From Chiloscyllium plagiosum (lineage: Eukaryota), in NCBI RefSeq assembly GCF_004010195.1, contig NC_057718.1, forward strand, positions 7,794,707 to 7,858,706: a DNA stretch of 64,000 nt, written 5' to 3'. The position numbers and the translations under genes were made by a program. Shown here piece by piece: positions 33,013 to 62,981 of this stretch. A model generated the notes under the pieces. It made no database searches and had not been told where the DNA came from. It saw nothing but the letters and a program-made list of their open reading frames with translations. Position 1 is the first letter of the stretch; each line of letters opens with the position of its first letter.

Positions 33013-33073
33013 ATGAATTTCTTCACCCTCTCCGTCCTGGTGCTAACACTCCAGCCGCCTCTCACTCCAGAAG
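33013..33073 (+). CDS. edn4: Preproendothelin exon 1 (signal peptide MNFFTLSVLVLTLQPPLTPE-G)
   Basis: ATG with G at -3, in-frame upstream stop TAA at 32917-32919, hydrophobic core FFTLSVLVLTL and consensus donor AAG|gtaagt. The phase 1 junction joins exon 2 in frame, as in vertebrate EDN genes. Confidence 0.8.
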
Positions 33074-33899
33074 GTAAGTCCTAACAGCTTTGCAATCTCT
33101 ACCTTCCGGGAGCGAGAGGGGATCGTAATCGGGAGGGAGGGTCGCAATAGATGCAACTGTCCCCTCAGCCCTCAAGATAGACAGAGTGAAGGTGACACCA
33201 GCGGCAGAGCATTGCCTCAACCTGAGATTACATAACACACGCACACACAAACATAAATACAAGAAATGTTGTAGAAGGAATAGGTGCTGACATTATTTTC
33301 TGCTTCAGCTTTAACAGATTATCCATATGTGTATATACCAGAATGCAGGTGTTTATGTCAGCCCACCACCTTTTCAATTGACTCTTCCATCTGCTTGACT
33401 ATATTTTTAAAAATCTACCTTTTTTTTAAAATCTTTTAATTAAACTTCAGTTCGTTTACGTTAAAGTACCTTCTGGTTCCCTTGAGCACAGGAGTAAAGA
33501 TTTCTGCATCCCCCTCTCCACCCCCATCCCCTTGGAACAAGATATATCTCAAACAGCAGGCAGCTGCAGGGGGAGCTTTCAAAGCCGTCAGTACCAGAGA
33601 TGAAAAGCTGATCGTGTTTCCTCAACAGGTGAAACTACTTCATTACCATTCCACATAACCTCAGGAATGTGACTGGGAGAGACAGCTCCTGGCATGGACT
33701 AGCTGCTTTGGTCAGTGTGGGATCTGCTGCCTGCAGTACTCTGGAACGACGCCCCTGATATAGTGACCAGTGTGCCTGTCAAATGGTCAAACAGAAATAG
33801 CACACTGTCATTGAGAGGGTGAGAACATGCTGTGGACAGTATGTTTCACAAAGGCGCTGCTGATCAAATCTACTGTGTGCACTGTCTGTTGGCCCCAGT

Positions 33900-34620
33900 T
33901 TCTTCCTAATTCACTCACGAGGTGTCAGAGCCAATGATAAGCCCAACATTGGTTGCCTATTGCTTTGAGAAGGTGGTGGTGAGCTGCCTTCTTGAATTCC
34001 TGTACTGTAGATACACCCACAATTCTGTTAGGGAGGGAGTCTTGACCCAGCCACACTGAAGGAATGGGGATATATTTCCAAGTCAGGATGATAAGTGGCA
34101 TGGAGGGGATCTTGCATGTGGTGATGTTCCCATCTATCTGCTGTCCGTTCCCTTACAGATGATAGAGGATATGGATTTGCTGTATGCAGACCCTTTCAGA
34201 TGGTACACATTGTGCATCTCTAGTTGAGGGAATGGATGTTGAGGGAACTGGATTGGATGCCAATGAAGTGGGCAGCTTGGTATTGAGCTTCTTGAGTGTT
34301 GTTGAAGTTGCAATCATTCAGAAAAGTGGACAATATAACATCACACCATCATTACCATCTTCCAGCTGGTGGACTGGCTTTGGGGAGTCAGTAGGGTGAG
34401 TTAATCACACCAGGTTCCTAGCCTCTCACCAGTTTTCATGGCCACAGTGTTTACATGGCTAATCCATTTGCATTTCTGGTCAATGGTAATCCCAAGGATG
34501 CTGATAGAGAGAGGTTCAGTGATGGGAATGTCAATGGGAGATGGATAGATTCTGTTTTATTGGAGAGGCCCATTGCATGGCACACGTATGGCACGAATAT
34601 TCATTGACACCTAGCAACCC
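33900..34620 (-). mobile_element. Degenerate CR1-type LINE/SINE 3' region
   Basis: Homologous to 39405-39940 and to the tail of the second SINE family. Confidence 0.6.
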
Positions 34621-34627
34621 ATGGTTG

Positions 34628-35788
34628 CTTATTTCAGTAAGGCATTTGATTAGATTCCCCATGGTAAGCTCATTCAGAAAGTTAGGAGGAATGGGATACA
34701 GGGAAATTAAGCTGTGTGGGTTTAAAATTAGCTGGCTGAAAGAAGACAGAATGGTAGTGGATGGAAAGTATTCCACTTGGAGGGCGCTGACCAGTGGTGT
34801 CCTGCAGATATCGGTTCTTGGGCCTCTGCTCTTTGCAGTTTTTATAAATGACTTGGATGAAGAAGTGGAAGGGTGGGTTAGTAAGTTTGCCGATGACACA
34901 ACGGTCAATGGTGTTGTAGATAGTGTCAATAGTGTAGATAGTGTCGAGGGCTGTTGCAGGCTACAACATGACATTGACAGGATGCAGAGCTGGGCTGAAA
35001 AGTGGCAGATGGAGTTCAACCTGGATAAATGCAAAGTGATTCATTTTGGAAGGTCAAATTTGAATGCTGAATACAGGGTTAATGACAGGATTCTTGGCAG
35101 TGTGGAGGAACAGCGGGATCTTGGAGTCCATGTATATATATCCCTCAAAGTAGCCACCCAAATTGATAGGGTTGTTAAGAACGTGTATGGTGTTTTGGCT
35201 TTCATTAACAGTGGGATTGAGTTTAAGAGCTATGAGGTTTTGCTACCTGGTTACATCACGTTTGGAATATTATATCCAATTTTGGTTGCCTCATTATAGG
35301 AACGATGTAGCTGCTTTCGAGAGCATGCACAGGAGATTTACCAGGATGCTGCCTGAATTGGAGAGCTTGTCTTATGAAGTGAGGTTAAGTGAGCTAGGGC
35401 TTTTCATACTGGAGAGAAGGAAGAAAGGCGACTTGATAGAGGTGTACAAGGTAATGAGAGGCACAGAGAGAGTAGATAGCCAGAGACCTTTCCCCAGGGC
35501 AGAAATGGATGTCACGAGGGGTTGTAATTTTAAGGTGATTGGAGGAAGGTGTAGGGATGATGTCAGAGGTAGAGTCTTTACGCAGAGAGTGGTGGGGGCA
35601 TGGAATGTACTGCCAGCGGTGGGAGTAGAGTCAGAGATATTAGGGACATCTAAGTGACTGCTGGACAAGAACATGGACAGAAGTAAATTGAGGGGGGTGT
35701 AGGTTAAGTTGATCTTAGACTAAGACAAATGCTCGGGACAACATCGTGGGCCAAAGGGCCTGTACTGTGCTGTTCTATGTACTGTGTA
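34628..35788 (+). mobile_element. 5'-truncated CR1/HER1 LINE (RT core to 3' UTR), frameshifted
   Basis: [51 protein letters not shown], followed by the C-terminal CR1 motifs. Confidence 0.9.
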
Positions 35789-38214
35789 ACCCAAACCTGT
35801 ATGTTGTCCATATCTTGTTGCGTGGATAGACGGTTGGAGTATCTGATGAGTTTTGAATGATAGAGTACACTGTAAAACTTTGAGCAAATCTTTCTATTTC
35901 TGATCTAATGATGGAGCAAAGGTCACTGTTTGCGATGATTGGATGTAGAACATTATACCGAGTGGTTCTGGCAGAACCTAAACTGAGCATCAGTGAGCAG
36001 GTTAACACTGGGTCACTCTACTTGATAGCAGTGTTGATAACATCCGCCATCACTTTGCTGATGACTGAGAGTGAACCGTTGAGGTAGTAATTGGTTGTAC
36101 ATGATTTGCCTGTTTTTTTTACGGTTAGGACATACTTATACAATTTTACACATTGCCGGCAGATGTCTGTGTCCTAGCTGTATTGCAACAGCTTGCCTAT
36201 AAGATATGGCCAGTTCTGGAGTACAAGTCTTCAGTAATACAGCCAGGATGTTCTGAGACTCATCTGTTCCTATGTTGCAACAACAATTACATTTCATTGA
36301 GATGTACCAAGGACATAACAAAAGATATTCTATAACTGCTTATTGTTCGTCAGAAGAGGAAATATGATAATGTGTCTGTGTTCAATGTTACTCCGAAGAT
36401 TACTTCTTTATTACAGTGCAGTTACTAACAGACTGAATACCAGAGACATAAGAACAGAGACGGGAGTGGACTTATTAGTTCCACTGTTTGGTTAGATCAT
36501 GGCTGACCTGTGTGGTATTCACTGGTCTTAATGTAGTCTCAGTACAATGAGGAGAGAAAATGACCATAAGACATAGGAGCAGAAATTAGGCCATTCCCAT
36601 CGAGTCTGCTCTGCCATTCAATCATGGCTGAGAAGTTTCTCATACCCATTCTCCTGCTTTCCCTCCATAACCCTTGATCCCCTTGTCAATCAAGAACCTA
36701 TCTATCTCTGTCCTAAGTATACTCAATGACCTGGCCTCCGCAGCCTTCTGTGGTGTTGTTATCCTGAACTTCCAGATGCCTGTCACTTTAATTCTCACCT
36801 TGAGGATCACTCTGACACCTCTGACCTGTTGCACTGTTGTTGTGAACTTCAACGTAATGAGGTACTTGACAACCTTTTGAGGACTCAGCATTAAATTCAG
36901 CAATTTCAGACCACAATTCCCAAGTTCCTGGTTTGTTTTCCTTTTGTTGCTTGTTTAGTTTTTCTTTGCTACCTGCTCCAGCCACTGCCTGTTTTGTCTT
37001 CTCTTGCCTCACTGCCATTCTCTTTAGCCCTGGAAGACTGACTCTTGGGTCACTCAAGCCTCTCCTAACTTTCACCCTATCACACCCTTTCCTTTTGTCC
37101 TTGACTCACCCCTGCCCCCCCCCGCCACTCAAAACTTTCCAAACTTATGCCATTTCTGAAGAAAGGGCACAGACCTGAAATGTTAACTCTGTTTCTCTTT
37201 CAATGCTGTTAAGCATAGCAATCATTTTCTGCTTTTATTTCTGATCTCCAGACCATGACGAAGCAATGAAACCATTAAGCCAGAAACTCAGTTAACGTTC
37301 TGGGGACCTGGGTTTGAGTGCCCCCCACCCCGCCCCATGGCAGATAGTGGAACTTGAATTCAACAAAACAAAATCTAGTATTACGAATCTACTGATGACT
37401 ATGAAACCATTATCAGTAAGAACCCATTTGGCTCCCAAGTATCCTTCAGGGAAAGAAATCAGTCATTCTTACCCTGGTCTGGCCTACATGTGACTTGAGA
37501 CCTTAGCAATGTGTTTGACTCTCAACTGCCCTCTGAAATAGCCAGGAAAGCCACTTAGTTCAAGGGCAGCTAGGGACGGGCAATGAACACTGGGCAGCCA
37601 GCCATGCTCAAGTTCCACAAGTGAATAATAAAAAAATCCACTGCATCCTGCTTTTCGATTAGTGTATCTCAACTCCATTAATATTCCTTTAGTTTCCTAA
37701 CCCTCGACACCCCTACCTAACAAATATCTGTCCCCCTCAGTCTTTCAAGCTCCAATTGTTTCCCAGGTTCTGTCGAGTTTTGGCAAGAATCCCAGATTTC
37801 CACAGACATTAATGTGAAGAAGTGATCAATAAATAATGTGATCAATTAATGTGATCAATAAATAACCTTGTTCTAATCACCAGAATCTATCCTCTGGCTC
37901 TGAGCTCCATCTGCTGAGGGGATTGTTTCTCCCTGACCACATTGCTCAGTCTACTTAACATGGAGTGGTTGGTAACAGTGATCTTGTTATAAAAGAATCT
38001 TTGCACCTCCCTCCTGTTCTACTGCGTGTGTCAACCTACGTTAAACAAAAATAAGGAATGGCTCTTACAACTGGCAAGGGAGCTTAAGACTAATTAAGCA
38101 TTTGCAATAATGCATAGCATTCTGTGAGGGTTAGGTTGGAGAGAAGGGGCCTGAAGTTGTTTGACCTGGGATGTTGGGAGGTGCAGAGAACTCTAGCAAA
38201 AATTCTAAAGCATC

Positions 38215-38385
38215 AGCCATTGTTCAGTCAGTAACATTCTGAGCCTTAAGTCAGAAGGTCATGGGTCCAAAGGTGAAGCACATCATCAGGCATCTCTGTG
38301 GCAGTACAAAGGGGTCGCTGCACTGTCAGAGGCAATATCTTTCAAACAATAGACTAAGCCCTCTCAGGTGGGCATAAAACGCTGA
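38215..38385 (+). mobile_element. Old Deu-domain-like SINE relic
   Basis: gcagtacaaaggggtcgctgcactgtcagaggcaatatctttcaaac..ctctcaggtgggcataaaa resembles the DeuSINE/AmnSINE core as I recall it. Confidence 0.5.
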
Positions 38386-38459
38386 GGGTGTTCAGAGCTT
38401 GAGATTTCTCTGCCATGTCCAGCCCTTTGTTTGTGGGACCATTTACTTTATCCACTCAA

Positions 38460-39401
38460 GGAGTAAGGCGTTCAACAAGGTTCCCCATGGGAGATTGATT
38501 AGCAAGGTTAGACCTCACGGAATACAGGGAGAACTAGCCATTTAGATACAGAACTGGCTCAAAGGTAGAAGACAGAGGGTGGTGGTGGGGGGTTGTTTTT
38601 CAGACTGGAGGCCTGTGACCAGTGGAGTGCCACAAGGATTGGTCCTCTACTTTTTGTCATTTATATAAATGATTTGGATGCGAGCATAATAGGTACAGTT
38701 AGTAAGTTTGCAGATGACACCAAAATTAGAGGTGTAGTGGACAGCGAATAGGGTTACTTCAGATTACAACAAGATCTTGACCAGATGGGCCAATGGGCTG
38801 AGAAGTGGCAGATGGAGTTTAATTCAGATAAATGCGAGGTGCTGCATTTTGGGAAAGCAAATCTTAATACACTTAATGGTAAGGTCCTTGGGTATGTTGC
38901 TGAACAAAGAGACCTTGGGAGTGCAGGTTCATAGCTCCCTGAAAGTGGAGTCGCAGGTACATAGGATAGAGGCTGAACAGGCTGGGGCTTTTTTCCCTGG
39001 AACATCGGAGGCTGAGGGGTGACTTCATAGAGCTTTACAAAATTATGAGGGGCATGGATAGGGTAAATAGACAAAGTCTCTTCCTTGGGGTGGGGGAGTC
39101 CAGAACTAGAGGACATAGGTTTAGGGTGAGAGGGGAAAAATATAAAAGAGACCTAAGGGGCAACTGTTTCACGCAGAGGGTGGTACGTGTATGGAATGAG
39201 CTGCCAGATGATGTGGCAGAGGCTAGTACAATTGCAACATTTAAAAGGCATCTGGATGAGTATATGAATAGGACGGGTTTGGAGGGATATGGGCCGGGTG
39301 CTGGCAGGTGGGGCTAGATTGGGTTGTTATATCTGGTCAGCATGGATGGGTTGGACCAAAGGGTCTGTTTCCATGCTGTCCATCTCTATGATTCTATGAC
39401 T
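38460..39401 (+). mobile_element. 5'-truncated CR1/HER1 LINE with an internal deletion
   Basis: [14 protein letters not shown] motifs and a 3' tail ctctatgattctatgact. Very similar to 53004-54030. Confidence 0.9.
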
Positions 39402-39404
39402 GTA

Positions 39405-39940
39405 AGTGCCGCTGGCTGGGCCTCCTTTTATTGTCCGTCTTTAGTTGTCCTTGAGATGGTGATGGTGAGCTGCGTTGAACCGCTGCAGTCCACGTGCTGG
39501 AGGTAGACCCACAATACTGTTAGGGAGGAACTTCCAGGATTTTGACTCAACGACACCGAAGGAACGGCGATATATTTCCAAGTCAGGTTGGTGAGGTGCT
39601 TGGAGGGGAACCTGCAGATGGTAACATTCCCATGTATCTGCTGCCTTTGTCCTTCCAGGTGGAAGGGGTCATGAGTTTGGAAGATGCTTTGTTGAATATT
39701 TCTAGATCTTGTGAAAAATGCCACTGAGCTTTGGTGGTGGAAGGCATGGATGTGGAGCCAGTCAAGTTATCTGCTTTGTCCTGGATGGTGTCGAGTTTCT
39801 TGAGTGTTGTGGAGCTGCACCCATCCAGACAATAGAGGAGTATTTCATCACACTCCTGACTTGTATCTTGTAGATAGTGGACAGGTTTTGGAGAGTCAGG
39901 AGGTGAGTCATTCACTGTGGTATTCCTAGTCTCTGACCTG
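39405..39940 (-). mobile_element. CR1-type LINE 3' fragment (second family)
   Basis: The minus strand encodes ..STTLKKLDTIQDKA..; the tail is shared with the second SINE family. Confidence 0.7.
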
Positions 39941-40789
39941 TTCGTGTAGCTGTGTTATTTATGTGGTGAGTCCAATTCTGCTTCTGGTCAATGGTAACCA
40001 GAAAATAAACTTAGTGTAGAAATTGGCTTCAGGACATTACAACAGCAACTGCCTTTCAGATGTGACTACAAAACATTTTGGGATGTCGAATTGAATCTCC
40101 TGTCCCGTTATTAATAACACAGGAAGAGAGGAGAGTTTTCAGCATGGATCATTCTTATATTATGGAACATGTGGCAAATTGGCAATTAATCAGAGACAGC
40201 CTCGAGCAGTGAATGCTGTGTCAGTTTTCATTGGACAATTGGTGTCATTTCACTTTTCTACTGCTGCTGGAACACAAGAGTTAGTTGCTCGAGAAGAATA
40301 AAGGTTACATTATGCTTCAATCAGGAGTCAAACTATCCTGTGTAAATCTGTGTACTTCACCCCATCTCTGCAAGACAATGGGCTGGTCAGGGAAAGGCTC
40401 AAACTCAGAAGGCTGCCTGGACAGTTTCCATTTAGTTTATGCAGATGCCGATTATTATTTCTGTATCTTTGCACTCTCTTCCCTCGTAGAGGAGCGTGAG
40501 CTAATGGGAGCATTCACAGACTGCCAGGCTGCTGCATCAACATTCCTGCCATGTCTGTAACCACTGAACCATAATCTCCTGCCCTCCTACATTCCAGCCC
40601 TGGGACGTTCCTATTCTGCAGCGGCAGCCTGTGGCAGTAACTGTGAACAATGCAGAACCCACTACCAAAGTGAGTTATTGTGGTAAATAGTGTTTGTTGT
40701 GTTTAGAGGGAGGTTGGGTAAGTGCACGACAGAGAAAGGAATAGAACGGTGTGTTGGCTGCATCTGATAAAAAGCAGGAGGAAGGTAGT

Positions 40790-41198
40790 CGTAGAGTCAT
40801 AGAGATGTACAGCACAGAAACAGAGTCTTCAGTCCAACTTTTCCAAGCTGACCAGATGTCCTAAATAATTCTAGTTCCATTTGCCAGCCTTTGGCCCATA
40901 TCCCTCTAAACCCTTCCTATTCATATACCCATCCTGATGCCTTTTAAATGCTGCAATTGTACCAGCCTCCACCACTTCCTCTGGCAGCCCATTCCATACA
41001 CGTACCACTCTCTGTGTCAAAAGATTGCTCCTTAGGTCCTTTTTAATTTTTCCCTTTTCACCATAAGCCTATGCTCTCCGGTTTTGGACTCTCCCTACCC
41101 CAGGAAAAAGATCTTGTCTATTTACCCTATCCATGCTCTTCATGCTTTTATAGAACTCTATAAGTCACCTCTCAGCCTTCGACGCTCCAGGGAAAATA
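40790..41198 (-). mobile_element. HER1/CR1 3' end fragment
   Basis: Reverse complement of the 3' end seen at 39000-39400. Confidence 0.85.
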
Positions 41199-41232
41199 CT
41201 GCGGAGTATAGATGCCAGTAGATACTAGTTGA

Positions 41233-41604
41233 AAGTTTGTGCGAAGATTTGTAGCTCGGGTGCTTGTTGCTGTGGTTCTGTTCGCCGAGCTGGAAGTTTT
41301 TAATTCGACTGGGACAACACTACTATCAAAGGGCAAGCCAGACAGAGAACAGCCAGGGAATTCCTAGAGGCATGGCATTCATCCACAAACTCCATCAACA
41401 AACACATCGACCTGGACCCAATATACCAACCACTACAGCGGACAGCTGAAACTGACAACCGGAAGCGGCAGGGACAGACCACTATAAACACCGGAGGAAA
41501 CATCAAAGAAGCGCTTCGCAGGAGGCTCCCAAGCACTGATGATGTCGCCTAGCCGGGGGACGAAATGTTTGCAACAAAAACTTCCAGCTTGGCGAACAGA
41601 ACCA
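41233..41604 (+). mobile_element. 5'-truncated Penelope-like retroelement (family D): GIY-YIG endonuclease C-terminus, hammerhead, inverted terminal segment and 17-bp TSD
   Basis: 41304-41552 is an open frame FDWDNTTIKGQARQRTAREFLEAWHSSTNSINKHIDLDPIYQPLQ.. Inverted repeat at 41271-41301 / 41576-41606. TSD cagtagatactagttga at 41216-41232 and 41605-41621. Confidence 0.85.
41533..41572 (+). ncRNA. Minimal type-I hammerhead ribozyme (predicted, slightly decayed)
   Basis: GCA-CUGAUGA-U-GUC..GAC-GAAA-U-GUU-UGC: helix I GCA/UGC, helix II closed by GUC/GAC. Confidence 0.6.
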
Positions 41605-42199
41605 CAGTAGATACTAGTTGAGCTAAATGGCCTGTCTTTGTGCCATAAACTCAATATAATCCTTACACCCAGCCAATAGAATGGGTTGATGGGTTATCCT
41701 GTGTGTTGAGATGTTTCTCTGGATTCAGGATTGGAATTAAGTGAGCAAGCAAAGCCCCTTCATTGAAGGAATGAATTTCTGCAGTAATTGGAGGGAATAG
41801 AGTTTTGTCACATGGCTCTTTCTGTCAACACCTGTCCTTGTGCCAACCAGAAGGGGTCCACTCCAGTTAAACGTAAATTTCCTCACCTGATTAGCCAGCC
41901 GGTTTCATCCAATATCTAAACCTTCCTTTCAGAATCACAGTCAATGTGGCTCCATACAGGTAACTGATGCCATTTTAAAGTCACTCCTGACTGCAGGGTT
42001 GATCACGTAACTGTTAATTTTAACACCACACCTGCTTTACTAATGTCCTTTCGGAAAGGAAATCTGCCATCCTTACCTGGTCTGGCCTACATGTGACTCC
42101 GGACCCACAGCAATGGGGTCGACTCTTTAACTGCCCTCTGGGCAATAAATGCTGGCTTAGTCAGTGATACCCACATCCTGTGAATCAATAATTTAAAAA

Positions 42200-43090: not shown

Positions 43091-43104
43091 GCCCAGATAT
43101 AGGG

Positions 43105-43600
43105 AGGGGATGGAGTGGTGGGGATGTTATTGGGCTAGAAATCCAGAGATCCAGGCTGACATTCTGGGGATACAGGTTTGAGGCAGATTTGTGAAATTTT
43201 AAATTCAGTAAAAATCTGGTGTAATGATGACCACTATTGAATAATTGTCAATTGTTATAAAATCCTACCTGGTTTGCTAATGCCCCTTTAAGGAAGGAAA
43301 TCCTGGCGGATGGTGAAATTTGAATCACCAAAAAAAAATCTGGAATTAAGAATCTACTGATGAAATCTACTCTGAAACGATTGCCAATAATCTGGCTCAC
43401 CAATGTCCTTCAGGGAAGGAAATCTGCCATCCTTATTTGGTCTGGCCTGCATGTGACTCCAGACCCATAGTAATGTGGCTGATTCTTAACTACCTGCTGG
43501 AATGGCCTAGCAAGCCATTCACTTCAAGGGTCAATCAGGGATGACGGACAAACTTTGACCTTGCTCTTGATACCTACATCCTATGAAAGAATAAAAGTTA
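43105..43600 (+). mobile_element. tRNA-derived SINE (second family) with an internal partial duplication
   Basis: Homologous to 20265-21131; the atggtgaaatttgaa..aaggaaatc block occurs twice. Confidence 0.7.
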
Positions 43601-47380: not shown

Positions 47381-47429
47381 CTAATATTTAAAAAGAACAA
47401 AAGTGTTGGCTGCTTCATGAGGGAATAAT

Positions 47430-54030: not shown

Positions 54031-55044
54031 GTAAAGCATTTCGATACGAAAATGGTGACGGATGTTTGGAACTCTCTTCCACAAACAGCAGTTGATCCAT
54101 TATTAACTTTAATCCTGAGATTGAGAAAATTGTGTTAAACAAAGGTAGTAAGGGATAAGGGCCAAAGGCAAGTGAATTGAGTTAGGCCACAGATCAGCCA
54201 GGATCTCATTGAATCGTGGAACAGGATCAAGGCGCTGAATGGCCTCCACCTGTGTTTGTCTTTTCCTGTTGTTATCCTGAAGGCTGTGATCAGATCACCC
54301 TTTAACCTTCTAAATTCTAGAGAATAATTTATTGAATAATTCCTTGTAATTTAACCGAGGCCATGTTGAAGGTAGATTACTGTGCAGACTAAACAGAAGA
54401 GGATACTCCCATATTGCTGTGACCTCGACACAGCATACAGAGAAGAGAATTGGTCGTGTGAATGACTTCACCAACCCTTACCCTCGGCCAGGTTGGCACA
54501 AACCATGAAGTGCCAGCACTACCAATCAGGACAAGTGCCTCAAAGTCCACCTGAGACAATTAGCTTGGCTTTATTGAGTTACCAAATATCCAAAAGCAGC
54601 ACCTGGTCCTGTGGCAAGGGAAGGTGCCTCAGCAATTTACTGGAATTATTGGAGGAAATGGGGACAATGCAGTTATTTGCATTGACTTGGATAATCTGAT
54701 CTGTGGATCCTCGGAAGGTCAGCTTTTATGAGGCTATCACCATTGGGCTAAGGAGGTGGCAGGGGCGGGGAATATTTGTAGAAGACCTAACATTAATCAG
54801 AATAGTTGACTGCCAGGATAACTGTAACAAATGTCAGGGCAAGGCAGTAAATATACATCAGAAGACGTTTCGTGAGGAGGAATGGGAGGTGATGCATTTC
54901 GGAAGGGTGAATGAGAAAGCGACATCGTTTCAGGATTTGTAGGACTTTTCAAAAGTTACCAAAAGTGACGGAACCATGAGGCACGTGGGACAGGTGATCG
55001 ACAGTGAAGAGTATTTGAGAATATTTTTTACCTGAGGTTGTGGA

Positions 55045-55210
55045 TGACCTTGTTGACTTCAGGGATGAGCTGGTAAGTTTGTTTGCAGCTGTTTCATCAC
55101 TGTGCTAGGTAACCTTCAACAGAGGCACACTGATGATGTTACCTAGAATGCGGGCAAAATATCAGCAAACTAACTTACCAGCTCAGCGAGCAAGTCAACG
55201 ACCTTGATCA
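55045..55210. mobile_element. Degenerate Penelope-like family D palindrome
   Basis: The arms gagctggtaagtttgtttgc and gcaaactaacttaccagctc flank cactgatgatgttacctag. Confidence 0.65.
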
Positions 55211-55469
55211 ACAGTCTCCATCCGTAATCAGTGGGAATTAAAGGTTGGGAAAACAGCGTTGGACTGAAGCTAAATGAAAAGGAGTAAAGAAGAGGGAGTT
55301 AGGGATTCGGGAACATACTCTTTTGAAAGAGAGCTATTGGTTTAGCGACAATTTGAACCAACAGCAAAGGAGGTATTGGCATAAAGTTACCACAGTTCTG
55401 ACCATTGTTGCCCTGATTTTCCAGCAATAATCCAAAAACAGAAAGTGCTTAGCCATCTAACATTATTTG

Positions 55470-55990
55470 CCGTGATGCGGATGATTGTCATGGGGATTAC
55501 AGTGGCCATAGCAATGATGGTGGTCATCATGATGATGGTGACTGAGAGTGTGGTGGAGATGGACATGGTGAAATTGGTAGGCATGGTGATTATAATAGCT
55601 ATGGTTTTTATGGTGGTCATGGCGACGGTGGTGAACAGTGTAACAGTAGTGGCCATTGTAAAAATGATGGCAGTCATGGTAATGATGGTGGCAATCATGA
55701 TTACCCTGATTATGGGGATGATGGAGCAAGGCTGGTGGCCATGGTGATGGTGATGCACAGCAGGTCCGGCAGCATGTGAGGAACAGGAAAATCAATGTTT
55801 CGGGAAAAAGCCCTTCATCAGGGCTTCCTGATGAAGGGCTTTTGCCCGAAACATTGTTTTCCTGCTCCTCGGATGCTGCCTGACCTGCTGTGCTTTTCCA
55901 GCACCACTCTAATCTAGACTCTGATCTCCAGCATCTGCAGTCCTCACTTTCACCTTTTGATGATGGTGATGACAATAGCAATGATGGCGA
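55470..55990. repeat. Degenerate (GAT/GGT)n trinucleotide tract with a family A palindrome inserted at ~55755-55955
   Basis: atgatggtg-type low complexity; inverted arms centred at ~55824. Confidence 0.8.
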
Positions 55991-56649
55991 CAATTCACAG
56001 GACCTTTGGAATGAGATTAGTAAGTGAAGTATATGCACTGTACACATGGGTCTGGTGCACCAGGAGACAACCGACACGACACCTAATTGGGACCTTATTG
56101 CAGTCATGTAACTGAAGAGATTGACAAATCAACATGCAACTCACTGGCCTTTGTGAATCCCTCAAAGGTTTAGTTGTAAATGTTTCCAAGATGATGCAGA
56201 GAAATCCCCCAATTCTCAACCATCGTGTCCAGACCACAGACACAACTGGCATGAATCCTTTCCGTTCCATTATTATTCAACATTTCTGATGCTGAATCCA
56301 AAGTTAATTCCAAATCTTGACTATTAATCACTCTGCAAAGCCGTGGTGACCCAGCCAACTACTGAATGACTGAAATAATTATCACTTTAAAAAGAAACCT
56401 CCCATTTTACATCATGTGCATCATAAACTGTGTTATGATGATGTTATTTGAAGCACAGTTTTTTAAAATTCATCTGTTGGCTCCTTCTAAATGATTTGAA
56501 TTATAAGTTCAGCGTTGCAGAGATGAACTTTGTACTTTTTTTAAATTCACGGATGGAATGTGGGTCACTGGCTTGGCCCAGCATTTATGGTCTGTCCATA
56601 GTTGCCCTGGAGTAGGTGGTTTTCAGCTGTCTCCTTGAATCACTGCAGT

Positions 56650-56960
56650 TGGGTGGCTCAGTGGTTAGCACTGCCGCCTCACAGCACCAGTGACCCGGGT
56701 TCAATTCCTGCCTGAGGCAACTGTCTGTGTGGAGTTTGCATATTCTCCCCGTGTCTGCGTGGGTTTCCTCCCGCAATCCAAAAATGTTCAGGTCAGATGG
56801 ATTGGCCATGCTAAATTGCCCCGTAGTGTTCATGGATGTGTAGATTAGGGGCATTAGTTGGGGGAAATGTAGAGTAACAGGGTAGGAGCATGGGTTTGGG
56901 TGGGGGGGGACGATGTGGACTTGTTGGGCCAAATGGCCTGTTTCCACACTGTAGGGATTC
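56650..56960 (+). mobile_element. HE1-type V-SINE nested in a minus-strand CR1/SINE tail
   Basis: GGTGGCTCAGTGG..GGTTCAATTCC, V-domain and tail gtagggattct. Confidence 0.85.
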
Positions 56961-58469
56961 TGAGCGTCCATATGCTGTAGATAGACCTACAATATCATTG
57001 GAGAGGGAATTCCTGGATTCTGTCCTAGCGACAGTGAAGAAATGGTTATATATTTCTAAGTCAGGATGGTGAGTGGCCGGGAGGGAACTTGAAGGTGGTG
57101 GTGTTCCCACGTATCTGCAGGCCTTCTCCTTTTGGATGGGAATGGTCATGGATTTGGAAGTTGCTGTCAAAGGGTCTTTGGAAAATTTTTTCAAGTTTTG
57201 AAGATTCAAAGTGGAAATGGACAGACAGATCTTTAGGCAGTAGGGGCATTGAGGGTTATGGGGAAAGGGCAAGGAAGTGGAGTTGAGAATTATCAGATCA
57301 GCTGTGATTTCACTGAATAGCAGGACAGACTCAATGGGCTGAATGGTCTACTGCACCATATCTTATGGCCTGATGAGTTAACTGATTAAAGTTTAGAATA
57401 ATTAAGAGGTGTGATAGGACCTTAATCATCTTAAAGACATCAGTTATATTGTGATTACTCTTCAATATTTTGAGGAACTGCAAACCTAGCTCAGCAGGGT
57501 CTGGGAGAGTGAGGTGCATCAGGTCCCAATAACTGGGATCTTGGACTTGAGGAACATATTGTGCACATGTGGAGCTGCTGTGTTCAGCTCCCAGGCCAGT
57601 GAGCCAGGCCCAGGGTATCACCATGACCTATGATTTCTGTCCAGGCACCTCTCTCTCAGCCCCTGTAACATTTCAGGTAATTAAAAGTGTCCTTCTCGCT
57701 ATTGTTACCTACAACAAAGACAGATCGCTAATCACCAGACTGCAGCCCGAAACCTCGATTCTCCTGCTCCTTGGATGCTGCCTGATCTGCTGTGCTTTTC
57801 CAGCACCACACTACGACTGGAAAAGATATCAGGTATAAGGCACCAAAATCAAATGGGATTTGCCAAAGTAAATGGGGTAAGTTTCTAGGTTTCTGAGAGG
57901 GTGTTACAGTTTACTCAAGGTGTCCAGGTTGCTGTGGGATCAAACATCTCGCAGCCTGAAACCATCGGCAGTGGCAGTGCCATCTTGAACTTTCTGACCA
58001 TCTCCCAGTTGGCCAGGAATCTCTCCTGTTCTTACAGCGATGTGCTACTCATGTACGTTTGGCCCTCAGTGCATTTGGCTGTGATTCTGAACACACCTTT
58101 CTTTTGGTCATCATGTCCTGGTGAGGGGTTCAATCTGTCTTTGTGACTACACCACAAGTTCCCGTCCGAGTCACCGACTAGAGAGCAACAATTTCAACTT
58201 CGCATCGAGAGAAGGAAAGAAAAGGGGAGGAGGGGAGATGTTGTGTGACACAGAGTTTCTGATCAGAAACAGCTGAAAATTCATTCCCGTAAATAGATTT
58301 TTTCAAGACAGCTGCATAACTGTTTGAAAGTGGAAAACATTAATAAAACGAAGATTAAAGAAGGACTTGCATATACATCACACCTCTCATGGCCTCGGGA
58401 CAATACGGAGAGCTTCAGAGTCAATGAAATGCTTTGAAGTATAGTCACTGTTGACAGATCCACAAATGT

Positions 58470-59200
58470 AGGGTCATTAGTCGGCCATTCAGCCCGTTGA
58501 GCCTGCTCTGTCATTCAATTGGATCATGGCTGATCCGATAACCCTCAACTCTACATTCTTGTGTTTTCCCCCATAGCTCTCGATTCTCTCACTGATTGAA
58601 AATCATCTCTCTCAGCCTTGAATACGCTGTAATGATCTAGCCACAACAGATTCCTGTGAGAGAAGAAAGCGCTCCTCATCTCAGTACAACCTCTTATTCT
58701 AAGATGATACCTTTATCTCCTAGATTCTCCCACAATGGGAAACAACTTCTTAACATCTGCCCCGTCTACTCCCCTAAGAGACTTACATGTTTCATTCAGA
58801 TCATCTATCATTCTTCTGAACTCCAATGAGTACAGGCCCAACCTACACAACCTCGCTTCATAAGAAAATCCCTCCATACCTGGAAAAAATGAACCCTCTC
58901 TGAACTGTACCCAGTGGCAGTGTACCTTTCCCTAGAAGAGGGGGGTTAGAAAGCGTGGTGCTGAAAGAGCAAATCCCTGATGAAGGGCCTATGCTCTCAA
59001 AATCGACTCTTTCAGAAAGCGCCACACTTTCTGACTTTGATCTCCAGCATCTGCCGTCCTCACCCTCTCTGTGAAGAGAAGAGCAAAGCTGTTGACTGTA
59101 TTCTAGCTGTGGCCTTACTAGTGCCTTGTATAGTTTCAGCAAGACATCCCTCTTTTTACACTCCTTTCCCTTTGAAATAGAGGTCAATATACATTGTCGA
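58470..59200 (-). mobile_element. Old CR1 3' fragment with a short family A insertion (~58945-59065)
   Basis: Minus strand ..RDVLLKLYKALVRPQLEYSQQL.. Confidence 0.7.
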
Positions 59201-59639
59201 CATTTTATAGAATGGGGGCAAACATGCATCCTTGAAAATCAGGCCCAAAATGTGGTAAATTAGTGAAACCTTGCGTCTGAATCTTCACCACCTCATTATG
59301 AGTAAGTGACAGGTCTTAGTAGGTGCATGTCAGACAATATTTCTTGAGGCAATGTTGATCAAGGCTGTGTGTTGTGGTCACATATGGTTTTAATTTTCTG
59401 GGGTTAACATTGAATGTTTGAAAACAGATTTGCACTCTGGGCACTGAGTCAGAGAGTAAATTCAGGCCAGTCTGCCAGAACAGAATACACTGTATAGAAA
59501 CATAACGACCATCTTGCTTCATTAGGACCTGTTAGATGATGGATGCTGTAGAATCCTAAACAAGGAATGAATCAATGCCTCTCTGCTCAAGGGCAATGGT
59601 AATGTAAGCATAAGTGTTTGTTAAGACTTGTTCAATCGT

Positions 59640-59940
59640 AGAATCCCTACAGTGTGGAATGAGACCATTCAGCCTTTTGGGTCTGCACCAATCCTTGGAA
59701 AAGCATCCCACCTAGACCCTTATACCTCACATTCCCCATGGCTAACCCACCCATCTCTGAACACTATGGAACAATTTAGCATGGCCAATCCACCTGACCT
59801 GCACATCTTTGGACTGTGGGAGGAAACCCACACTGACACAAGGAGAACGTGCAAACTCCACACAGACAGTCTCCCGAGGTGAAATCAAATTCTGGTCCCT
59901 GGCACTGTGGGGCAGCAATGCTAACCACTGAACCACCCCT
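59640..59940 (-). mobile_element. HE1-type V-SINE
   Basis: Homologous to the other HE1 copies. Confidence 0.85.
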
Positions 59941-60309
59941 CTTACTGTGTTGTCTTTCTGCAGTCACTATCAAGGTGACCTACAATCACTGATGTGTGTT
60001 CTCCACACCTTTCCCCAGCTTCTCAATGTTCTTTGCGCTGAAATATCATCAAACCAAAGGCAAGTAGGGATTGGTGATTCAACCCAATGTAAATTCAGCT
60101 GATTTCTTTTGGAAAGAAAGGTGTTAAAACCTACCCCATGAGTGATAATGATATGTGGCACGTGTAACTTAGGATGAATGAGTGGCTCTGGATCCATGCT
60201 TCCTGAAATTCCTCATCAGTGGGTGTTTACCAACACTTCATGTTGTTCACTTTTTGATAGAGATTGACCAGTGGGATTGGTTAGTCAACAATCCTATTAT
60301 TGGAAAATG

Positions 60310-60530
60310 TCGAAGAGTGTGGTGCTGGAAAAGCACAGCTGGTCAGGAAGCATCTGAGGAGCAGGACAATCAATGTTTCAGGCATAAGCCCTTCATCAGG
60401 AACAAGGCTGATCAAGGGCTTATGCCTGAAACGTCGATTCTCCTGCTCCTCAGATGCTACCGGACCTGCTGTGCTTTTCCAGCACCACACTCTTCGACTC
60501 TGATCTCCAGCAGCTGCAGTCCTCCCTTTC
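60310..60530. mobile_element. Penelope-like family A tailed palindrome with 18-bp TSD (1 mismatch)
   Basis: TSD tcctattattggaaaatg at 60292-60309 and tcctattagtggaaaatg at 60531-60548. Confidence 0.85.
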
Positions 60531-61019
60531 TCCTATTAGTGGAAAATGGTAAAGAAGGTGGACAGCCAGTGGTCCCACAATCCTTTGCTTTACCCAACCA
60601 ACTAATAACAAGTTTCACTTCCAACAATTTCTATCTTTGTAATGTTGACGCCTTAGCCTTCGGGTTTTTCATACCATAGTGTTCTCCGGAACATGTTCCA
60701 AGGTGGCAGGACTCCCTTTTCAAAAGGCCTGGCCTTGCTAACGCAGGACGAGGTGAGAGAATTTAAGACGTCTGGGGATATCAGTCCAATTCCAGGTCCT
60801 GCGTTCAGGTCGGCCTGGGTGAGTAGACAGAGCAGATGGTGAAACCAATGTCCCACCCAATCTCACATTTTGCACTGGGAAGAAAGCACAAATTCTTTCC
60901 CTCACTCAACTTGCAAGGCCAGCGATTTTGAGCCAGAGATGTGTTCTGTGCATATTTTCTTGCCTGTTTCGACATGCATTGCCTTGGTTAAAGATCATAC
61001 TAAGAACTAAGTAAGCCTT

Positions 61020-61420
61020 ACTCTTGTAGAGCGCTTGTCATAACCTGAATCTGTCTCAAAGAACTTTGTCGGTGATGAGTTTTTTGACAGGGTGAGCGGT
61101 CACGGTTGTAATGTGGGAAATGCAGCAGCCATTTGGGTGGTGGGGGGGGAGCGCACAGCAAGATCCCATAATTAGCAACATAATTGAAGGCTAGACTGTT
61201 CATTCTGGTGATGGTAATTTGTGTGTTTGTATTTCTACTTCAAAATAATGTCGATGACACACGACCAATTCTGTCCACTGGAGAAGGCCAACAAGCACTC
61301 ATTCCCATCTGAAGTGGCATCTCCAACAGCGCAGCACTCCATGAGTACAGCATCAGCATGTCACCTTCATACTCAGGTGATAGACTGTAGCCCACTGAGA
61401 CCATATCTGGTATCCCAGTC
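61020..61420 (-). mobile_element. Old Deu-domain-like SINE relic just upstream of exon 3
   Basis: The minus strand has gctgtactcatggagtgctgcgctgttggagatgccacttcagatg and the tail aaatggctgctgcatttcccacattacaac. Confidence 0.5.
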
Positions 61421-61503
61421 AGAACCTCCACCTGGGTATGCTCCAGTATTCATTGCTGTCACTTGTATACTTACAAACCTAACCGTGATTTTCATTGTCA
61501 CAG

Positions 61504-61632
61504 ACAGGTTGTTCCATACGGGTTGGGGAATGCCGCGAAACTTCGGAAGCGGGAACTGACTCGATGTTTCTGCACCAAGGGCAAGGATGCAGAGTGCAGG
61601 ACCTTCTGCCAGTCACCAAGCAGAGTGCCACG
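61504..61632 (+). CDS. edn4: Preproendothelin exon 3 (big-ET C-terminus and endothelin-like domain at 61565-61609)
   Basis: Branch-like ctaac at ~61479 and acceptor ttttcattgtcacag|A. Translation (G)QVVPYGLGNAAKLRKRELTRCFCTKGKDAECRTFCQSPSRVP(R). Donor CG|gtatgt; phases 2/2. Confidence 0.95.
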
Positions 61633-61786
61633 GTATGTTTCAGAATCAAGAACAGTCAACTCAATCAGGCTGCAGTGGGCTGTGCACTGATCAAAGCTGT
61701 GGGAAACAATGCACTCTCACCCCACCCAGATTATCGCAAAACCCTAGTTCACTACTTGTTAGTGCTGGAGAGTCTTAAAGTGGGTA

Positions 61787-62725
61787 CACACACACACACA
61801 TACATACACACACTCTCTCCCACATCCATGATTTTGCACGCATACATACACACAGACTCGCACACACAGACTCGCACACACAGTCACACATGCATGCACA
61901 CACATGTGCATACACACACACTCATGCATACATACACACGCACTCACACTCTCACACATCCACGCATTTACACATTCTCTCACACACATACATACACACA
62001 CACTCTCCCTCACAGGTATATATGCACAAATTCTCTCTCTCTCACTCACACACACACACACACACACACTCTCACGCATGCACGTATATACAAACTCACA
62101 CGCATACATACACACATGCACACACATACTGTCTCACACATGCATATATACACATACTCACACGTGCAGCCATACACACACTCACACATACACACACTCT
62201 CTCTCTGTCTCTCTCTCACACAAATACTGTTTCTATCACACACATACACACACTCTCTCACTCACGCATACATGTGCACATATTCACACACTCTCACATG
62301 CATATATACACTCTCACACGCATGCACACACACTCACACGTGCATACGCACTCTCTCAAACGCATACATACACACGCTCTCTCTCACCTACATGCATACA
62401 CTCTCACATGCACAAACGTATACACACAGTCTCTCACGTGCATACATACACACATACCTGCTCACATGTGCATACACACACTCGCACACATGCATACATA
62501 CACAGACTCTCACAAGTACATACACACACACACTATTTCACATGCGCGCGCGCGCACACTCATATGTGCAAGCATACATATACACTCTCACACACATGCA
62601 CACACCTGTGTGCTTACATGCACATACACTCATGCGTGTGCACACACATACACATGCACACACGCACTGTCTCTCAAATATGCACATTCTCTGTCTCACA
62701 CACGTATGGACATGCACACACAAGC
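61787..62725. repeat. Degenerate (CA)n/(CT)n microsatellite, ~940 bp, in intron 3
   Basis: Low-complexity CA-rich tract that generates spurious His/Thr-rich ORFs. Confidence 0.95.
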
Positions 62726-62887
62726 ACCAGAACTCTGCAACAAACATAGTCCATTCAGCTCACTCTAACCTCATGTACTGTTCAGCTGGTTCCCATCATT
62801 TATTGACTTTTAGGGGCTCATGATCAGAGTTATCGTGTGAAAACAGTATATCAAATAACTGTAAGCAATGTTCAGATTCTTTATCAG

Positions 62888-62981
62888 GTTTGTGAAGAAG
62901 GAGCAGCTTCAATATGGTACATTAGTTAATGAGACAAAGGAAGGAAATATATTATTGGCACAGCTGAGAACATTTCACTGA
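62888..62981 (+). CDS. Candidate terminal coding exon 4 of preproendothelin
   Basis: Acceptor ttctttatcag|G in the correct phase 2, open for FVKKEQLQYGTLVNETKEGNILLAQLRTFH*. It would give a 152-aa precursor. Homology evidence is weak. Confidence 0.35.

What the first reader, a model, noticed from the sequence alone, without database searches (positions are those of the whole stretch)
33013..62981. Hidden spliced endothelin gene, probably the Edn4 paralog, in a shark-like genome
Seen in sequence: three exons separated by 12.5-kb and 15.8-kb TE-filled introns splice in frame (phases 1, 2) to [122 protein letters not shown]. There are no stops and all splice sites are canonical. Established: this is the preproendothelin layout (signal, furin site, 21-mer, ECE W-V bond, ET-like domain), and ET-1/2/3 all end HLDIIW. 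Inference: the H-x-G-I-V-W tail matches my recollection of Edn4, described from ray-finned fishes and absent in mammals. An intact chondrichthyan copy would support Edn4 as an ancestral gnathostome ohnolog. Automatic annotation may mislabel it endothelin-1/2/3-like.
Basis: partly seen in the sequence, partly recalled or inferred. Interest (0 to 1): 0.9.

Follow-up and report, generated by a model that had tools for sequence, protein, structure and literature searches.

The report
Shark endothelin-4 gene, publicly mislabelled endothelin-1
This is an intact gene for a fourth endothelin hormone (Edn4) in a carpet-shark genome, a paralog thought to survive only in ray-finned fishes; it is already in public annotation, but under the wrong name.

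Summary
The three exons are real, at 33013-33073, 45540-45714 and 61504-61632. All splice sites are canonical and the intron phases are 1 and 2. Exon 2 hits Pfam Endothelin at E=1.3e-20. A fourth coding exon lies 792 bases past the window end. The 159-aa product is identical to a public RefSeq model named "endothelin-1 isoform X1", so the gene is mislabelled, not hidden.

The genome holds exactly four endothelin loci. In trees the window's product and nine other cartilaginous-fish proteins (tail HVGIVW) are sister, at 100/98 support, to a bony-fish clade (tail HIGIVW). That clade contains the gar protein UniProt calls "Endothelin 4". The grouping holds without the 21-mer columns (96/91).

The gene lies between an AIG1-family gene and VTA1. 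FUCA, PHACTR, LTV1 and SF3B5 lie 2.5-2.9 Mb away in the human 6q24 order. Human 6q24 is the HIVEP2/PHACTR2 region and has no EDN gene. The separate HKDIIW locus sits with 1p34-35 markers and groups with Edn2.

Verdict: Edn4 orthology is well supported. Expression is untested. The only paper in the searched library that discusses Edn4's distribution places it in ray-finned fishes alone. Interest is modest, because a two-rounds-of-duplication origin of Edn4 was already inferred.

The parts
33013..33073 (+). Coding exon 1: start codon and residues 1-20 plus the first base of codon 21. The N-terminus is hydrophobic and signal-peptide-like. Donor is GAAG|gtaagt.
   Evidence: tblastn P0004 residues 1-23, E=2.5e-9. 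The signal peptide is inferred from the hydrophobic core FFTLSVLVLTL; no predictor was run.
33074..45539 (+). Intron 1, 12,466 bases, phase 1. It contains a reverse-transcriptase fragment at 34523-35299.
   Evidence: Pfam RVT_1 E=2.4e-9.
45540..45714 (+). Coding exon 2: propeptide, furin site, mature 21-mer and the start of the big-endothelin tail (VNTPG).
   Evidence: Pfam PF00322 E=1.3e-20. tblastn 98% identity to P0004 residues 21-79.
45626..45637 (+). R-E-K-R (residues 50-53), a furin-type R-x-K-R site immediately before Cys1 of the mature peptide.
   Evidence: R50 and R53 are invariant and E51 and K52 at least 90% conserved in 17 Edn4-clade proteins. Cleavage itself is inferred from ET-1 biology (PMC4815360, passages).
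45638..45700 (+). Mature 21-residue peptide [21 protein letters not shown] (residues 54-74). Cys are at positions 1, 3, 11 and 15 and Trp at 21. The W74-V75 bond that follows at 45700/45701 is the predicted endothelin-converting-enzyme site.
   Evidence: Identical in 9 of 13 cartilaginous-fish entries and one substitution away in the other 4.
45715..61503 (+). Intron 2, 15,789 bases, phase 2.
61504..61632 (+). Coding exon 3: the rest of the big-endothelin tail, the basic site and the endothelin-like domain. Donor is CACG|gtatgt, phase 2.
   Evidence: tblastn 100% identity to P0004 residues 80-122. The junction to exon 4 was checked.
61544..61552 (+). R-K-R (residues 93-95), the basic site that would end big endothelin. 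P4 is Leu here; 6 of the 8 aligned cartilaginous-fish orthologs have R-R-K-R or R-R-R-R, while the 2 nearest (P0004, P0005) also have Leu.
   Evidence: Cleavage is inferred.
61565..61609 (+). Endothelin-like peptide CFCTKGKDAECRTFC (residues 100-114) with the same C-x-C-x7-C-x3-C spacing as the hormone.
   Evidence: Pfam PF00322 gives only E=0.023, 14.6 bits, below the cut-off. C100, C102 and C110 are invariant and C114 at least 90% conserved in the Edn4 clade.
61633..64000 (+). Intron 3, which runs off the window (3,159 bases in all) and contains a CA-rich impure microsatellite at about 61760-62720. The last coding exon (residues 122-159 and the stop) is outside the window at L009:792-906 (G000:C9:7859498-7859612), behind a CAG|CAG tandem acceptor.
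   Evidence: Public isoforms X1 and X2 differ by the one Arg expected from the tandem acceptor.

Best explanation
The locus is an intact four-exon gene for a 159-residue preproendothelin. It is the cartilaginous-fish ortholog of Edn4, the fourth endothelin paralog left by the early vertebrate genome duplications.

By analogy with ET-1, the precursor enters the secretory pathway. A furin-type protease cuts it after R-E-K-R (residues 50-53) and at the R-K-R site (residues 93-95), giving a big endothelin of about 39 residues. An endothelin-converting enzyme then cuts the Trp74-Val75 bond. This releases the 21-mer [21 protein letters not shown], with disulfides Cys1-Cys15 and Cys3-Cys11, which signals through endothelin G-protein-coupled receptors.

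Shown here: the gene structure, family membership, orthology group, genomic neighbourhood and deep sequence conservation. Inferred: secretion, processing, receptor binding and expression.

The peptide departs from ET-1/2/3 at positions 17 (Val), 18 (Gly) and 20 (Val), and in cartilaginous fishes also at position 9 (Thr). Its receptor preference may therefore differ.
For: Structure: exons, canonical splice sites and an open frame. The product is identical, 159 of 159 residues, to public model P0143.

Family: PF00322 at E=1.3e-20.

Locus count: four endothelin loci pass, out of 150 scored candidates (373 in the first look). Their 21-mers are of Edn1 type (C29), HKDIIW type (C27), Edn3 type (C20) and this one (C9).

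Trees (IQ-TREE, LG+C20):
- 56 rows: window plus 9 cartilaginous-fish proteins plus 7 teleost HIGIVW proteins form a clade at 100/97.
- The same clade scores 96/91 with the 21-mer columns dropped.
- 62 rows: an Edn4 clade of 23 rows at 100/98. It splits into cartilaginous fishes (100/90) and bony fishes (98/87). The bony-fish side includes gar P0181, which UniProt names 'Endothelin 4'.
- The HKDIIW shark clade goes with teleost Edn2 at 93/92 and with all Edn2 at 83/47.
- An Edn2+Edn4 supergroup scores 96/88 to 97/94, matching the published 'edn2/4 paralogy group' (bioRxiv 10.1101/710475, passages).
- AU test: holding the shark clade together with bony Edn2 costs 26.3 lnL, p=0.018.

Synteny on contig C9:
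- fucosidase at 4.92-4.94 Mb
- RPEL/phactr at 5.10-5.14 Mb
- LTV1 at 5.18 Mb, its only locus
- SF3B5 at 5.29 Mb, its only locus
- AIG1-family gene at 7.29-7.37 Mb
- this gene at 7.828-7.860 Mb
- VTA1 at 8.30 Mb, its only locus

The human 6q24 order is VTA1, ADGRG6, HIVEP2, AIG1, ADAT2, PEX3, FUCA2, PHACTR2, LTV1, ZC2HC1B, PLAGL1, SF3B5, with no EDN gene (PMC7809258, table passage).

Contig C27 carries the HKDIIW endothelin with a phactr gene about 0.4 Mb away. It also carries MED18, a FOXO gene, CTP synthase and the second fucosidase. I recall these as human 1p34-36 markers.

Constraint: the 21-mer differs by at most 1 of 21 residues from chimaera to rays and sharks. Whole-protein identity to the window product falls to 48-51% in the most distant of them, Callorhinchus and Hypanus.
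Against: - No RNA evidence.
- hivep2 itself was not located next to the gene.
- PEX3 was not found anywhere in the genome by the exon-wise search.
- The phactr2 block is 2.7 Mb away and inverted relative to human.
- On C27 the Edn2-type gene is about 15 Mb from MED18, FOXO and CTPS. That assignment therefore rests on same-chromosome linkage, not adjacency.
- Precursors are short (205 kept columns) and several rows have long branches. In one search the HKDIIW clade, bony Edn2 and Edn4 form an unresolved three-way fork.
- The AU group was named after the tree had been seen.
- Synteny of the fish edn4 locus could not be checked, because no fish genome is held.
- Two positions that a review calls 'always conserved' in endothelins and sarafotoxins (18 and 20) are changed, so activity on known receptors is not assured.
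- The basic site ending big endothelin has Leu at P4 in this species.
Confidence: 0.87

Rival explanations
1. It is the shark ortholog of Edn2, as NCBI names the orthologs in Hemiscyllium, Stegostoma, Cetorhinus, Pristis and Callorhinchus. The HKDIIW gene on C27 would then be the extra copy.
For: Automatic names. Edn2 and Edn4 are sister groups. In one search the three-way fork of HKDIIW, bony Edn2 and Edn4 is unresolved. Snake Edn2 also has Gly18.
Against: The clade with the named gar Endothelin 4 scores 100/98. HKDIIW groups with Edn2 at 93/92 and 83/47. The AU test rejects shark clade plus bony Edn2 (p=0.018). The markers around the gene are 6q24 genes, while the 1p34-36 markers lie on C27 with the HKDIIW gene.
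Confidence: 0.04
2. It is a cartilaginous-fish-specific duplicate of Edn1 or Edn2 whose G-I-V-W tail converged on that of fish Edn4. NCBI labels the gene 'endothelin-1' in this and several other species.
For: NCBI names. The precursor is short and the tail is only a few residues, so convergence is conceivable.
Against: The grouping survives removal of all 21 mature-peptide columns (96/91). A separate Edn1-type locus with an AIG1/ADTRP-family neighbour and a phactr gene lies on C29. The position in a distinct paralogon that is EDN-less in human argues for an ohnolog, not a local duplicate.
Confidence: 0.04
3. It is an unexpressed or decaying gene copy (a pseudogene) that merely retains an open frame.
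For: No RNA evidence was obtained. The gene has large TE-bearing introns. The basic site has Leu at P4.
Against: The frame is open over four exons with canonical sites. Intact orthologs exist in at least 12 other cartilaginous-fish species. The 21-mer is invariant or one substitution away. Cys, furin-site and W-V-N-T-P columns are invariant across 17 Edn4 proteins.
Confidence: 0.04

Closest known systems
Endothelin 4 (edn4) of ray-finned fishes, for example spotted gar W5LWS2 (P0181) and zebrafish LOC103909337 / si:ch211-202p1.5 (P0220)
   Same: Same starred clade (100/98). Same precursor layout of about 140-170 residues, with R-E-K-R before the 21-mer, a WVNTP..VPYG big-endothelin tail and one endothelin-like Cys motif. 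Shared Gly18, Ile19, Val20 and Trp21.
   Different: The shark, ray and chimaera peptide has Val17 where fish have Ile17. It has Thr9 where most fish have Lys9 (some have Ile, Arg, Met, Gln or Gly). It has S-N-M-Q at positions 4-7 where fish have E-N-L/Q-K. The lineage is cartilaginous fishes, where the only paper in the searched library that discusses Edn4's distribution does not place it (PMC5039696, passages).
Endothelin-2 (EDN2), including the shark HKDIIW gene on contig C27
   Same: Sister paralogy group (Edn2+Edn4 at 96/88 to 97/94). Same cysteine frame, furin site and W-V scissile bond. This is the name NCBI gives the ortholog in several sharks.
   Different: It forms a different clade and lies on a different chromosome, with 1p34-36-type markers. 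Its tail is H-L/K-D-I-I-W with Asp18 retained.
Endothelin-1 (EDN1), the label this gene carries in RefSeq for this species (P0143)
   Same: Pfam family PF00322. Differs at 7 of 21 positions from the commonest Edn1 21-mer. Shares ECVYFCH and the VNTP..VVPYGLG tail.
   Different: A separate Edn1-type locus exists on C29. Edn1 precursors are longer, at 195-226 aa in the rows used. Edn1 lies outside the Edn2/4 group in all three trees.

Membership tests
Endothelin family (Pfam PF00322) | Profile match above the curated cut-off | tested here: met
   Exon 2 peptide scores 73 bits, E=1.3e-20, against a cut-off of 20.5. The genome-wide search scores this locus at 73.3 bits.
Endothelin family (Pfam PF00322) | A 21-mer with Cys at 1, 3, 11 and 15 and a C-terminal Trp21, preceded by a basic cleavage site and followed by Val22 (the converting-enzyme bond) | tested here: met
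   REKR | [21 protein letters not shown] | VNTP. The layout matches PMC5039696 and PMC4815360, passages.
Endothelin family (Pfam PF00322) | Residues 1, 3, 8, 10, 11, 15, 16, 18, 20 and 21 'always conserved' in endothelins and sarafotoxins (PMC4815360, passage) | tested here: not met
   8 of 10 are kept. Position 18 is Gly, not Asp, and position 20 is Val, not Ile. The same holds across the Edn4 clade. The published rule, drawn from ET-1/2/3 and sarafotoxins, therefore does not cover Edn4. Family membership by profile is unaffected.
Endothelin family (Pfam PF00322) | A second, endothelin-like Cys motif in the next exon | tested here: inconclusive
   C-x-C-x7-C-x3-C is present at residues 100-114, but the Pfam score is below the cut-off (14.6 bits, E=0.023).
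Endothelin family (Pfam PF00322) | Secretion, furin and converting-enzyme processing, and activation of an endothelin receptor | not testable with these tools
   Inferred from homology only.
Edn4 paralogy group | Monophyly with a protein named Endothelin 4, to the exclusion of Edn1, Edn2 and Edn3 | tested here: met
   A 23-row clade at 100/98 includes gar P0181 'Endothelin 4'. It scores 100/97 without the added rows.
Edn4 paralogy group | Grouping does not depend on the mature-peptide tail | tested here: met
   96/91 after dropping the 21 mature-peptide columns.
Edn4 paralogy group | Edn1, Edn2 and Edn3 exist as separate loci in the same genome | tested here: met
   Four loci are found, on C9, C27, C29 and C20. 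Proteins of close relatives carrying the 21-mers of the C29, C27 and C20 loci (C27 and C20 identical, C29 a near match) fall in Edn1, with Edn2, and in Edn3.
Edn4 paralogy group | Location in the fourth hivep/phactr paralogon (HIVEP2/PHACTR2 region, human 6q24, no EDN gene) | tested here: met
   FUCA, phactr, LTV1, SF3B5, AIG1-family, EDN and VTA1 all lie on C9:4.9-8.3 Mb, compared with the human 6q24 gene list. Caveats: hivep2 itself was not located, PEX3 was not found, and the phactr paralog is identified by its neighbours only.
Edn4 paralogy group | Conserved synteny with the gar or teleost edn4 locus | not testable with these tools
   No fish genome is held, and Braasch et al. 2009 is not held.
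Edn2 (label in several sharks) | Clade with bony-vertebrate Edn2 and linkage to 1p34-36 markers | tested here: not met
   AU p=0.018 against. MED18, FOXO, CTPS and the second fucosidase are on C27, not C9.
Edn1 (RefSeq label of the identical protein) | Clade with Edn1 | tested here: not met
   It lies outside Edn1 in all three trees. An Edn1-type locus is present on C29.

The most novel reading that the evidence does not exclude
Edn4 is a pharmacologically distinct fourth endothelin, not a redundant copy. Its clade-wide changes at positions 17, 18 and 20, plus Thr9 in cartilaginous fishes, fall on residues reported as crucial for receptor binding or 'always conserved'. They would give it its own receptor preference, for example for Ednrb2 or for a receptor state that ET-1/2/3 do not favour. 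The peptide has been kept almost unchanged since the split of chimaeras from sharks and rays, and it also survives in lungfish, so it was lost only on the line to tetrapods. This would point to an undescribed endothelin signalling axis in most jawed fishes.
Probability: 0.3. Interest if true: 0.55.

Novelty: new member of a known kind. Interest (0 to 1): 0.35.

Why it matters
Endothelin signalling patterns the neural crest (jaw, pigment cells, enteric neurons) and controls vascular tone. Its ligand family is a textbook case of gene gain through the early vertebrate genome duplications.

[quoted passage not shown] An intact, strongly constrained Edn4 in sharks, rays and a chimaera gives direct rather than inferred evidence that the last common ancestor of jawed vertebrates had all four ligands. 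An Edn4-clade protein in a lungfish moves the loss to the tetrapod stem, or at least later than supposed.

It also shows that automatic names for this gene (endothelin-1, -2, -3, -3a, 'uncharacterized') are unreliable in well over a hundred fish genomes. This matters for anyone comparing endothelin expression across species.

The gain is modest. The origin by genome duplication was already proposed, the gene models are public, and no function is known for Edn4.

Tried and rejected
- Braasch et al. 2009, the paper that defined Edn4: not held. What that paper calls Edn4 is therefore taken from PMC5039696 and from the UniProt name of gar P0181.
hivep2 was therefore not located, and the 460 kb between the AIG1-family gene and this gene is unread.
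- PEX3 (PF04882): no match anywhere (0 of 7 candidates).
- RNA support: no RNA holder listed.
- ORF scan of the window and of a GC-rich stretch 15 kb downstream: 24 ORFs scanned. It found only low-complexity repeat ORFs, one reverse-transcriptase fragment and one LINE-type endonuclease, with no neighbouring gene.
- The 200 kb downstream holds no long hivep-like exon among ORFs of 150 aa or more. However, 14,207 of its bases are withheld as N.
- Earlier findings of this scan: nothing relevant.
- Literature on Edn4 in cartilaginous fishes. 'edn4' with 'endothelin' gave 2 papers. 'edn4' anywhere gave 50 papers, 30 listed, and only PMC5039696 was relevant among those listed. 'endothelin 4' gave 0. 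'endothelin-4' gave 13 medical papers, seen as a listing only. Three further combinations gave nothing on this point.
- Supplements of bioRxiv 10.1101/710475 (hivep/phactr trees) are closed and may bear on the claim.
- Considered and rejected: Edn2, Edn1, convergent lineage-specific duplicate, and pseudogene (see rival explanations).


Full report
**Observation**

- Exon 1 runs from the ATG at 33013 to 33073 (GAAG|gtaagt).
- Exon 2 is 45540-45714. It lies behind a pyrimidine tract and cacag, and ends CCAGG|gtaag.
- Exon 3 begins at 61504 behind tcacag.

The translations are open and match the quoted peptides. The introns are 12,466 and 15,789 bases, in phases 1 and 2. Exon 2 matches Pfam Endothelin (PF00322) at 73 bits, E=1.3e-20, against a cut-off of 20.5. 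Exon 3 carries the same C-x-C-x7-C-x3-C spacing but scores below the cut-off (14.6 bits).

There are three corrections:
- Exon 3 ends at 61632 (donor G61633 T61634).
- The stated end, 62981, marks nothing.
- A fourth coding exon lies outside the window at L009:792-906, which is 792 bases past base 64000. It sits behind a CAG|CAG tandem acceptor.

**Already annotated**

Joined by coordinates in a script, the four exons give a 480-base frame and a 159-residue product. This product is identical at 159 of 159 residues to P0143, which NCBI names 'endothelin-1 isoform X1' of Chiloscyllium plagiosum. Isoform X2 lacks the one Arg expected from the tandem acceptor.

Orthologs at 60-98% identity over exon 2 are annotated in 11 other cartilaginous fishes, from Hemiscyllium to Callorhinchus. 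They are variously named endothelin-1, endothelin-2, endothelin-2-like or uncharacterized (12 proteins with E≤0.001 among 28 candidates).

**Four loci in one genome**

The window is G000:C9:7794707-7858706 in a 3.56-Gb assembly. A search with the exon 2 peptide found four strong loci, on C9, C27, C29 and C20. The other five matches all had E>3. The Pfam profile likewise found four loci, out of 150 scored candidates and 373 in the first look.

Their 21-mers are:
- C9: [21 protein letters not shown]
- C27: a peptide ending HKDIIW
- C29: an Edn1-type peptide ending HLDIIW
- C20: an Edn3-type CTC...YYCHLDVIW

**Phylogeny**

A profile of the four exon-2 peptides recovered 1,709 family members, of which the best 120 are listed. 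Sorting by 21-mer showed a teleost group ending HIGIVW.

I chose by hand 55 of the 126 proteins then held, for taxon spread. The 71 left out were mostly further amniote Edn1 and Edn3. I added the window's product to these rows.

IQ-TREE (LG+C20, 200 columns) gave the following:
- window plus 9 cartilaginous-fish plus 7 teleost HIGIVW proteins: 100/97
- the HKDIIW shark clade with teleost Edn2: 93/92
- an Edn2+Edn4 supergroup: 96/88

With the 21 mature-peptide columns removed, the Edn4-type clade still scores 96/91. HKDIIW joins all Edn2 at 83/47.

Holding the shark clade together with bony-vertebrate Edn2 costs 26.3 log-likelihood units (AU p=0.018). The caveat is that I named this group after seeing the tree.

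A profile of 17 clade members then found 550 proteins, of which 120 are listed. Of the 101 new ones, 99 end HIGIVW, one ends HIGIIW (a lungfish) and one ends HVGILW. Among them is gar W5LWS2, which UniProt names 'Endothelin 4'.

Six of these were added: gar, two sturgeons, lungfish, zebrafish and arowana. The result is a 23-row clade at 100/98 that splits into cartilaginous fishes (100/90) and bony fishes (98/87). This mirrors the species tree. In this last tree the fork of HKDIIW, bony Edn2 and Edn4 is unresolved.

**Synteny**

On C9 they lie as follows:

| Marker | Position on C9 |
|---|---|
| alpha-L-fucosidase | 4.92-4.94 Mb |
| RPEL repeats of a phactr gene | 5.10-5.14 Mb |
| LTV1 (only locus) | 5.18 Mb |
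| SF3B5 (only locus) | 5.29 Mb |
| AIG1/ADTRP-family gene | 7.29-7.37 Mb |
| this gene | 7.828-7.860 Mb |
| VTA1 (only locus) | 8.30 Mb |

A table in PMC7809258 lists the genes of human 6q23.2-6q24.3 in order...NMBR, VTA1, ADGRG6, HIVEP2, AIG1, ADAT2, PEX3, FUCA2, PHACTR2, LTV1, ZC2HC1B, PLAGL1, SF3B5, STX11... There is no EDN gene among them.

The shark block FUCA-phactr-LTV1-SF3B5 is therefore colinear with human FUCA2-PHACTR2-LTV1-SF3B5. The endothelin gene sits in the AIG1-VTA1 interval, where human has HIVEP2 and ADGRG6.

Endothelin genes are known to be closely linked to hivep and phactr paralogs (bioRxiv 10.1101/710475, passages). 6q24 is the one such region without an EDN gene, which is the expected home of the fourth ohnolog.

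Contig C27 carries the HKDIIW gene at 19.75 Mb with a phactr gene at 19.33-19.35 Mb. It also carries MED18 (3.45 Mb), a FOXO gene (3.76 Mb), CTP synthase (4.34-4.36 Mb) and the second fucosidase (28.2 Mb). I recall these as human 1p34-36 genes; no call confirms that. This fits Edn2, though only by same-chromosome linkage.

AIG1-family genes also lie near the Edn1-type locus (C29) and the Edn3-type locus (C20).

Weak points: hivep2 was not located, PEX3 was not found, and no fish genome could be compared.

**How it probably works**

The account here follows ET-1 (PMC4815360 and PMC5039696, passages).
1. The hydrophobic N-terminus directs secretion.
2. Furin-type cleavage occurs after R-E-K-R (residues 50-53) and at R-K-R (residues 93-95), giving a big endothelin of about 39 residues.
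3. An endothelin-converting enzyme cuts the Trp74-Val75 bond.
4. The 21-mer, with Cys1-Cys15 and Cys3-Cys11 bridges, activates endothelin receptors.

None of these steps was tested here.

Constraint is strong. The 21-mer is identical in 9 of 13 cartilaginous-fish entries and differs at one residue in the other four. The furin site, the cysteines and W-V-N-T-P are invariant or nearly so across 17 clade members. Whole-protein identity to the window product falls to 48-51% in the most distant cartilaginous fishes (Callorhinchus and Hypanus) and to 31-42% in bony fishes.

[quoted passage not shown] Edn4 has Gly18 and Val20 and a changed residue 17. Cartilaginous fishes also have Thr9. A shifted receptor preference is therefore plausible but unshown.

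**Expression**

No listed run is on record as RNA. Expression stays open.

**Novelty**

In the searched library only two papers hold both 'edn4' and 'endothelin'. [quoted passage not shown] The other (PMC3762194) only mentions, in passing, that Edn4 is absent from mammals. Further searches found nothing on cartilaginous fishes.

Braasch et al. 2009, Braasch and Schartl 2014 and the bioRxiv supplements were not readable. I therefore cannot exclude that the point is in print, and public orthology databases may already group these genes.

The finding is a new member, in a new major lineage, of a known paralogy group. It confirms an origin by genome duplication that was already inferred. Interest is modest.

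Noticed in passing
P0233 (Protopterus annectens 'endothelin-1-like', 140 aa): A lungfish protein with the 21-mer CSCENVRDIECVYFCHIGIIW falls inside the bony-fish Edn4 subclade (98/87). [quoted passage not shown] Its branch is long (0.5) and its exact place within the subclade is unresolved.
   Followed up: partly
P0148-P0248 and P0220: Edn4-clade proteins of more than 90 ray-finned fishes are named endothelin-1, -2, -3, -3a, 'si:ch211-202p1.5' or uncharacterized. Only the gar entry is called Endothelin 4. Zebrafish has a member (LOC103909337).
   Followed up: partly
L009:786-795 (just past the window end): A CAG|CAG tandem (NAGNAG) acceptor lies in front of the last coding exon. It matches public isoforms X1 and X2, which differ by one Arg.
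   Followed up: yes
window 9000-16647 and 17149-18218: A 25-base minisatellite of at least 306 copies (81% matches; it may begin before 9000), followed by a 33-base array of about 33 copies. These produce the long repeat ORFs on the minus strand.
   Followed up: partly
window 61760-62720 (intron 3): About 1 kb of impure CA/CACT-rich microsatellite lies directly downstream of exon 3. This is why the long ORF at 61489-62823 is an artefact.
   Followed up: yes
G000 contigs C9, C20, C29: Three AIG1/ADTRP-family loci each lie within about 0.1-0.5 Mb of an endothelin locus (Edn4, Edn3 and Edn1 types). This gene family therefore belongs to the same fourfold paralogon. None was found near the Edn2-type locus on C27.
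   Followed up: no
G000:C27: The Edn2-type gene and its phactr neighbour (19.3-19.75 Mb) lie about 15 Mb from MED18, FOXO and CTP synthase (3.4-4.4 Mb). I recall their human counterparts as lying close to EDN2 or PHACTR4. This would be an intrachromosomal rearrangement.
   Followed up: no
P0010 (Hemitrygon akajei, 194 aa): This stingray Edn4 model repeats the RKRELRRCLCA...CQSYCR endothelin-like segment twice. It is either an exon duplication or an annotation artefact.
   Followed up: no
P0016 (Crotalus adamanteus 'endothelin-2', 214 aa): The rattlesnake Edn2 model carries two complete 21-mer motifs in one precursor, both with Gly18. This is a tandem arrangement. As I recall, sarafotoxin precursors are built in a similar way.
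   Followed up: no
L009-L028 (G000:C9:7858707-8058706): 14,207 of 200,000 downstream bases are withheld as N, in blocks of about 0.6-3.5 kb. A GC-rich stretch at C9:7874395-7879853 has overlapping ORFs on both strands, and one has a LINE-type endonuclease match.
   Followed up: partly
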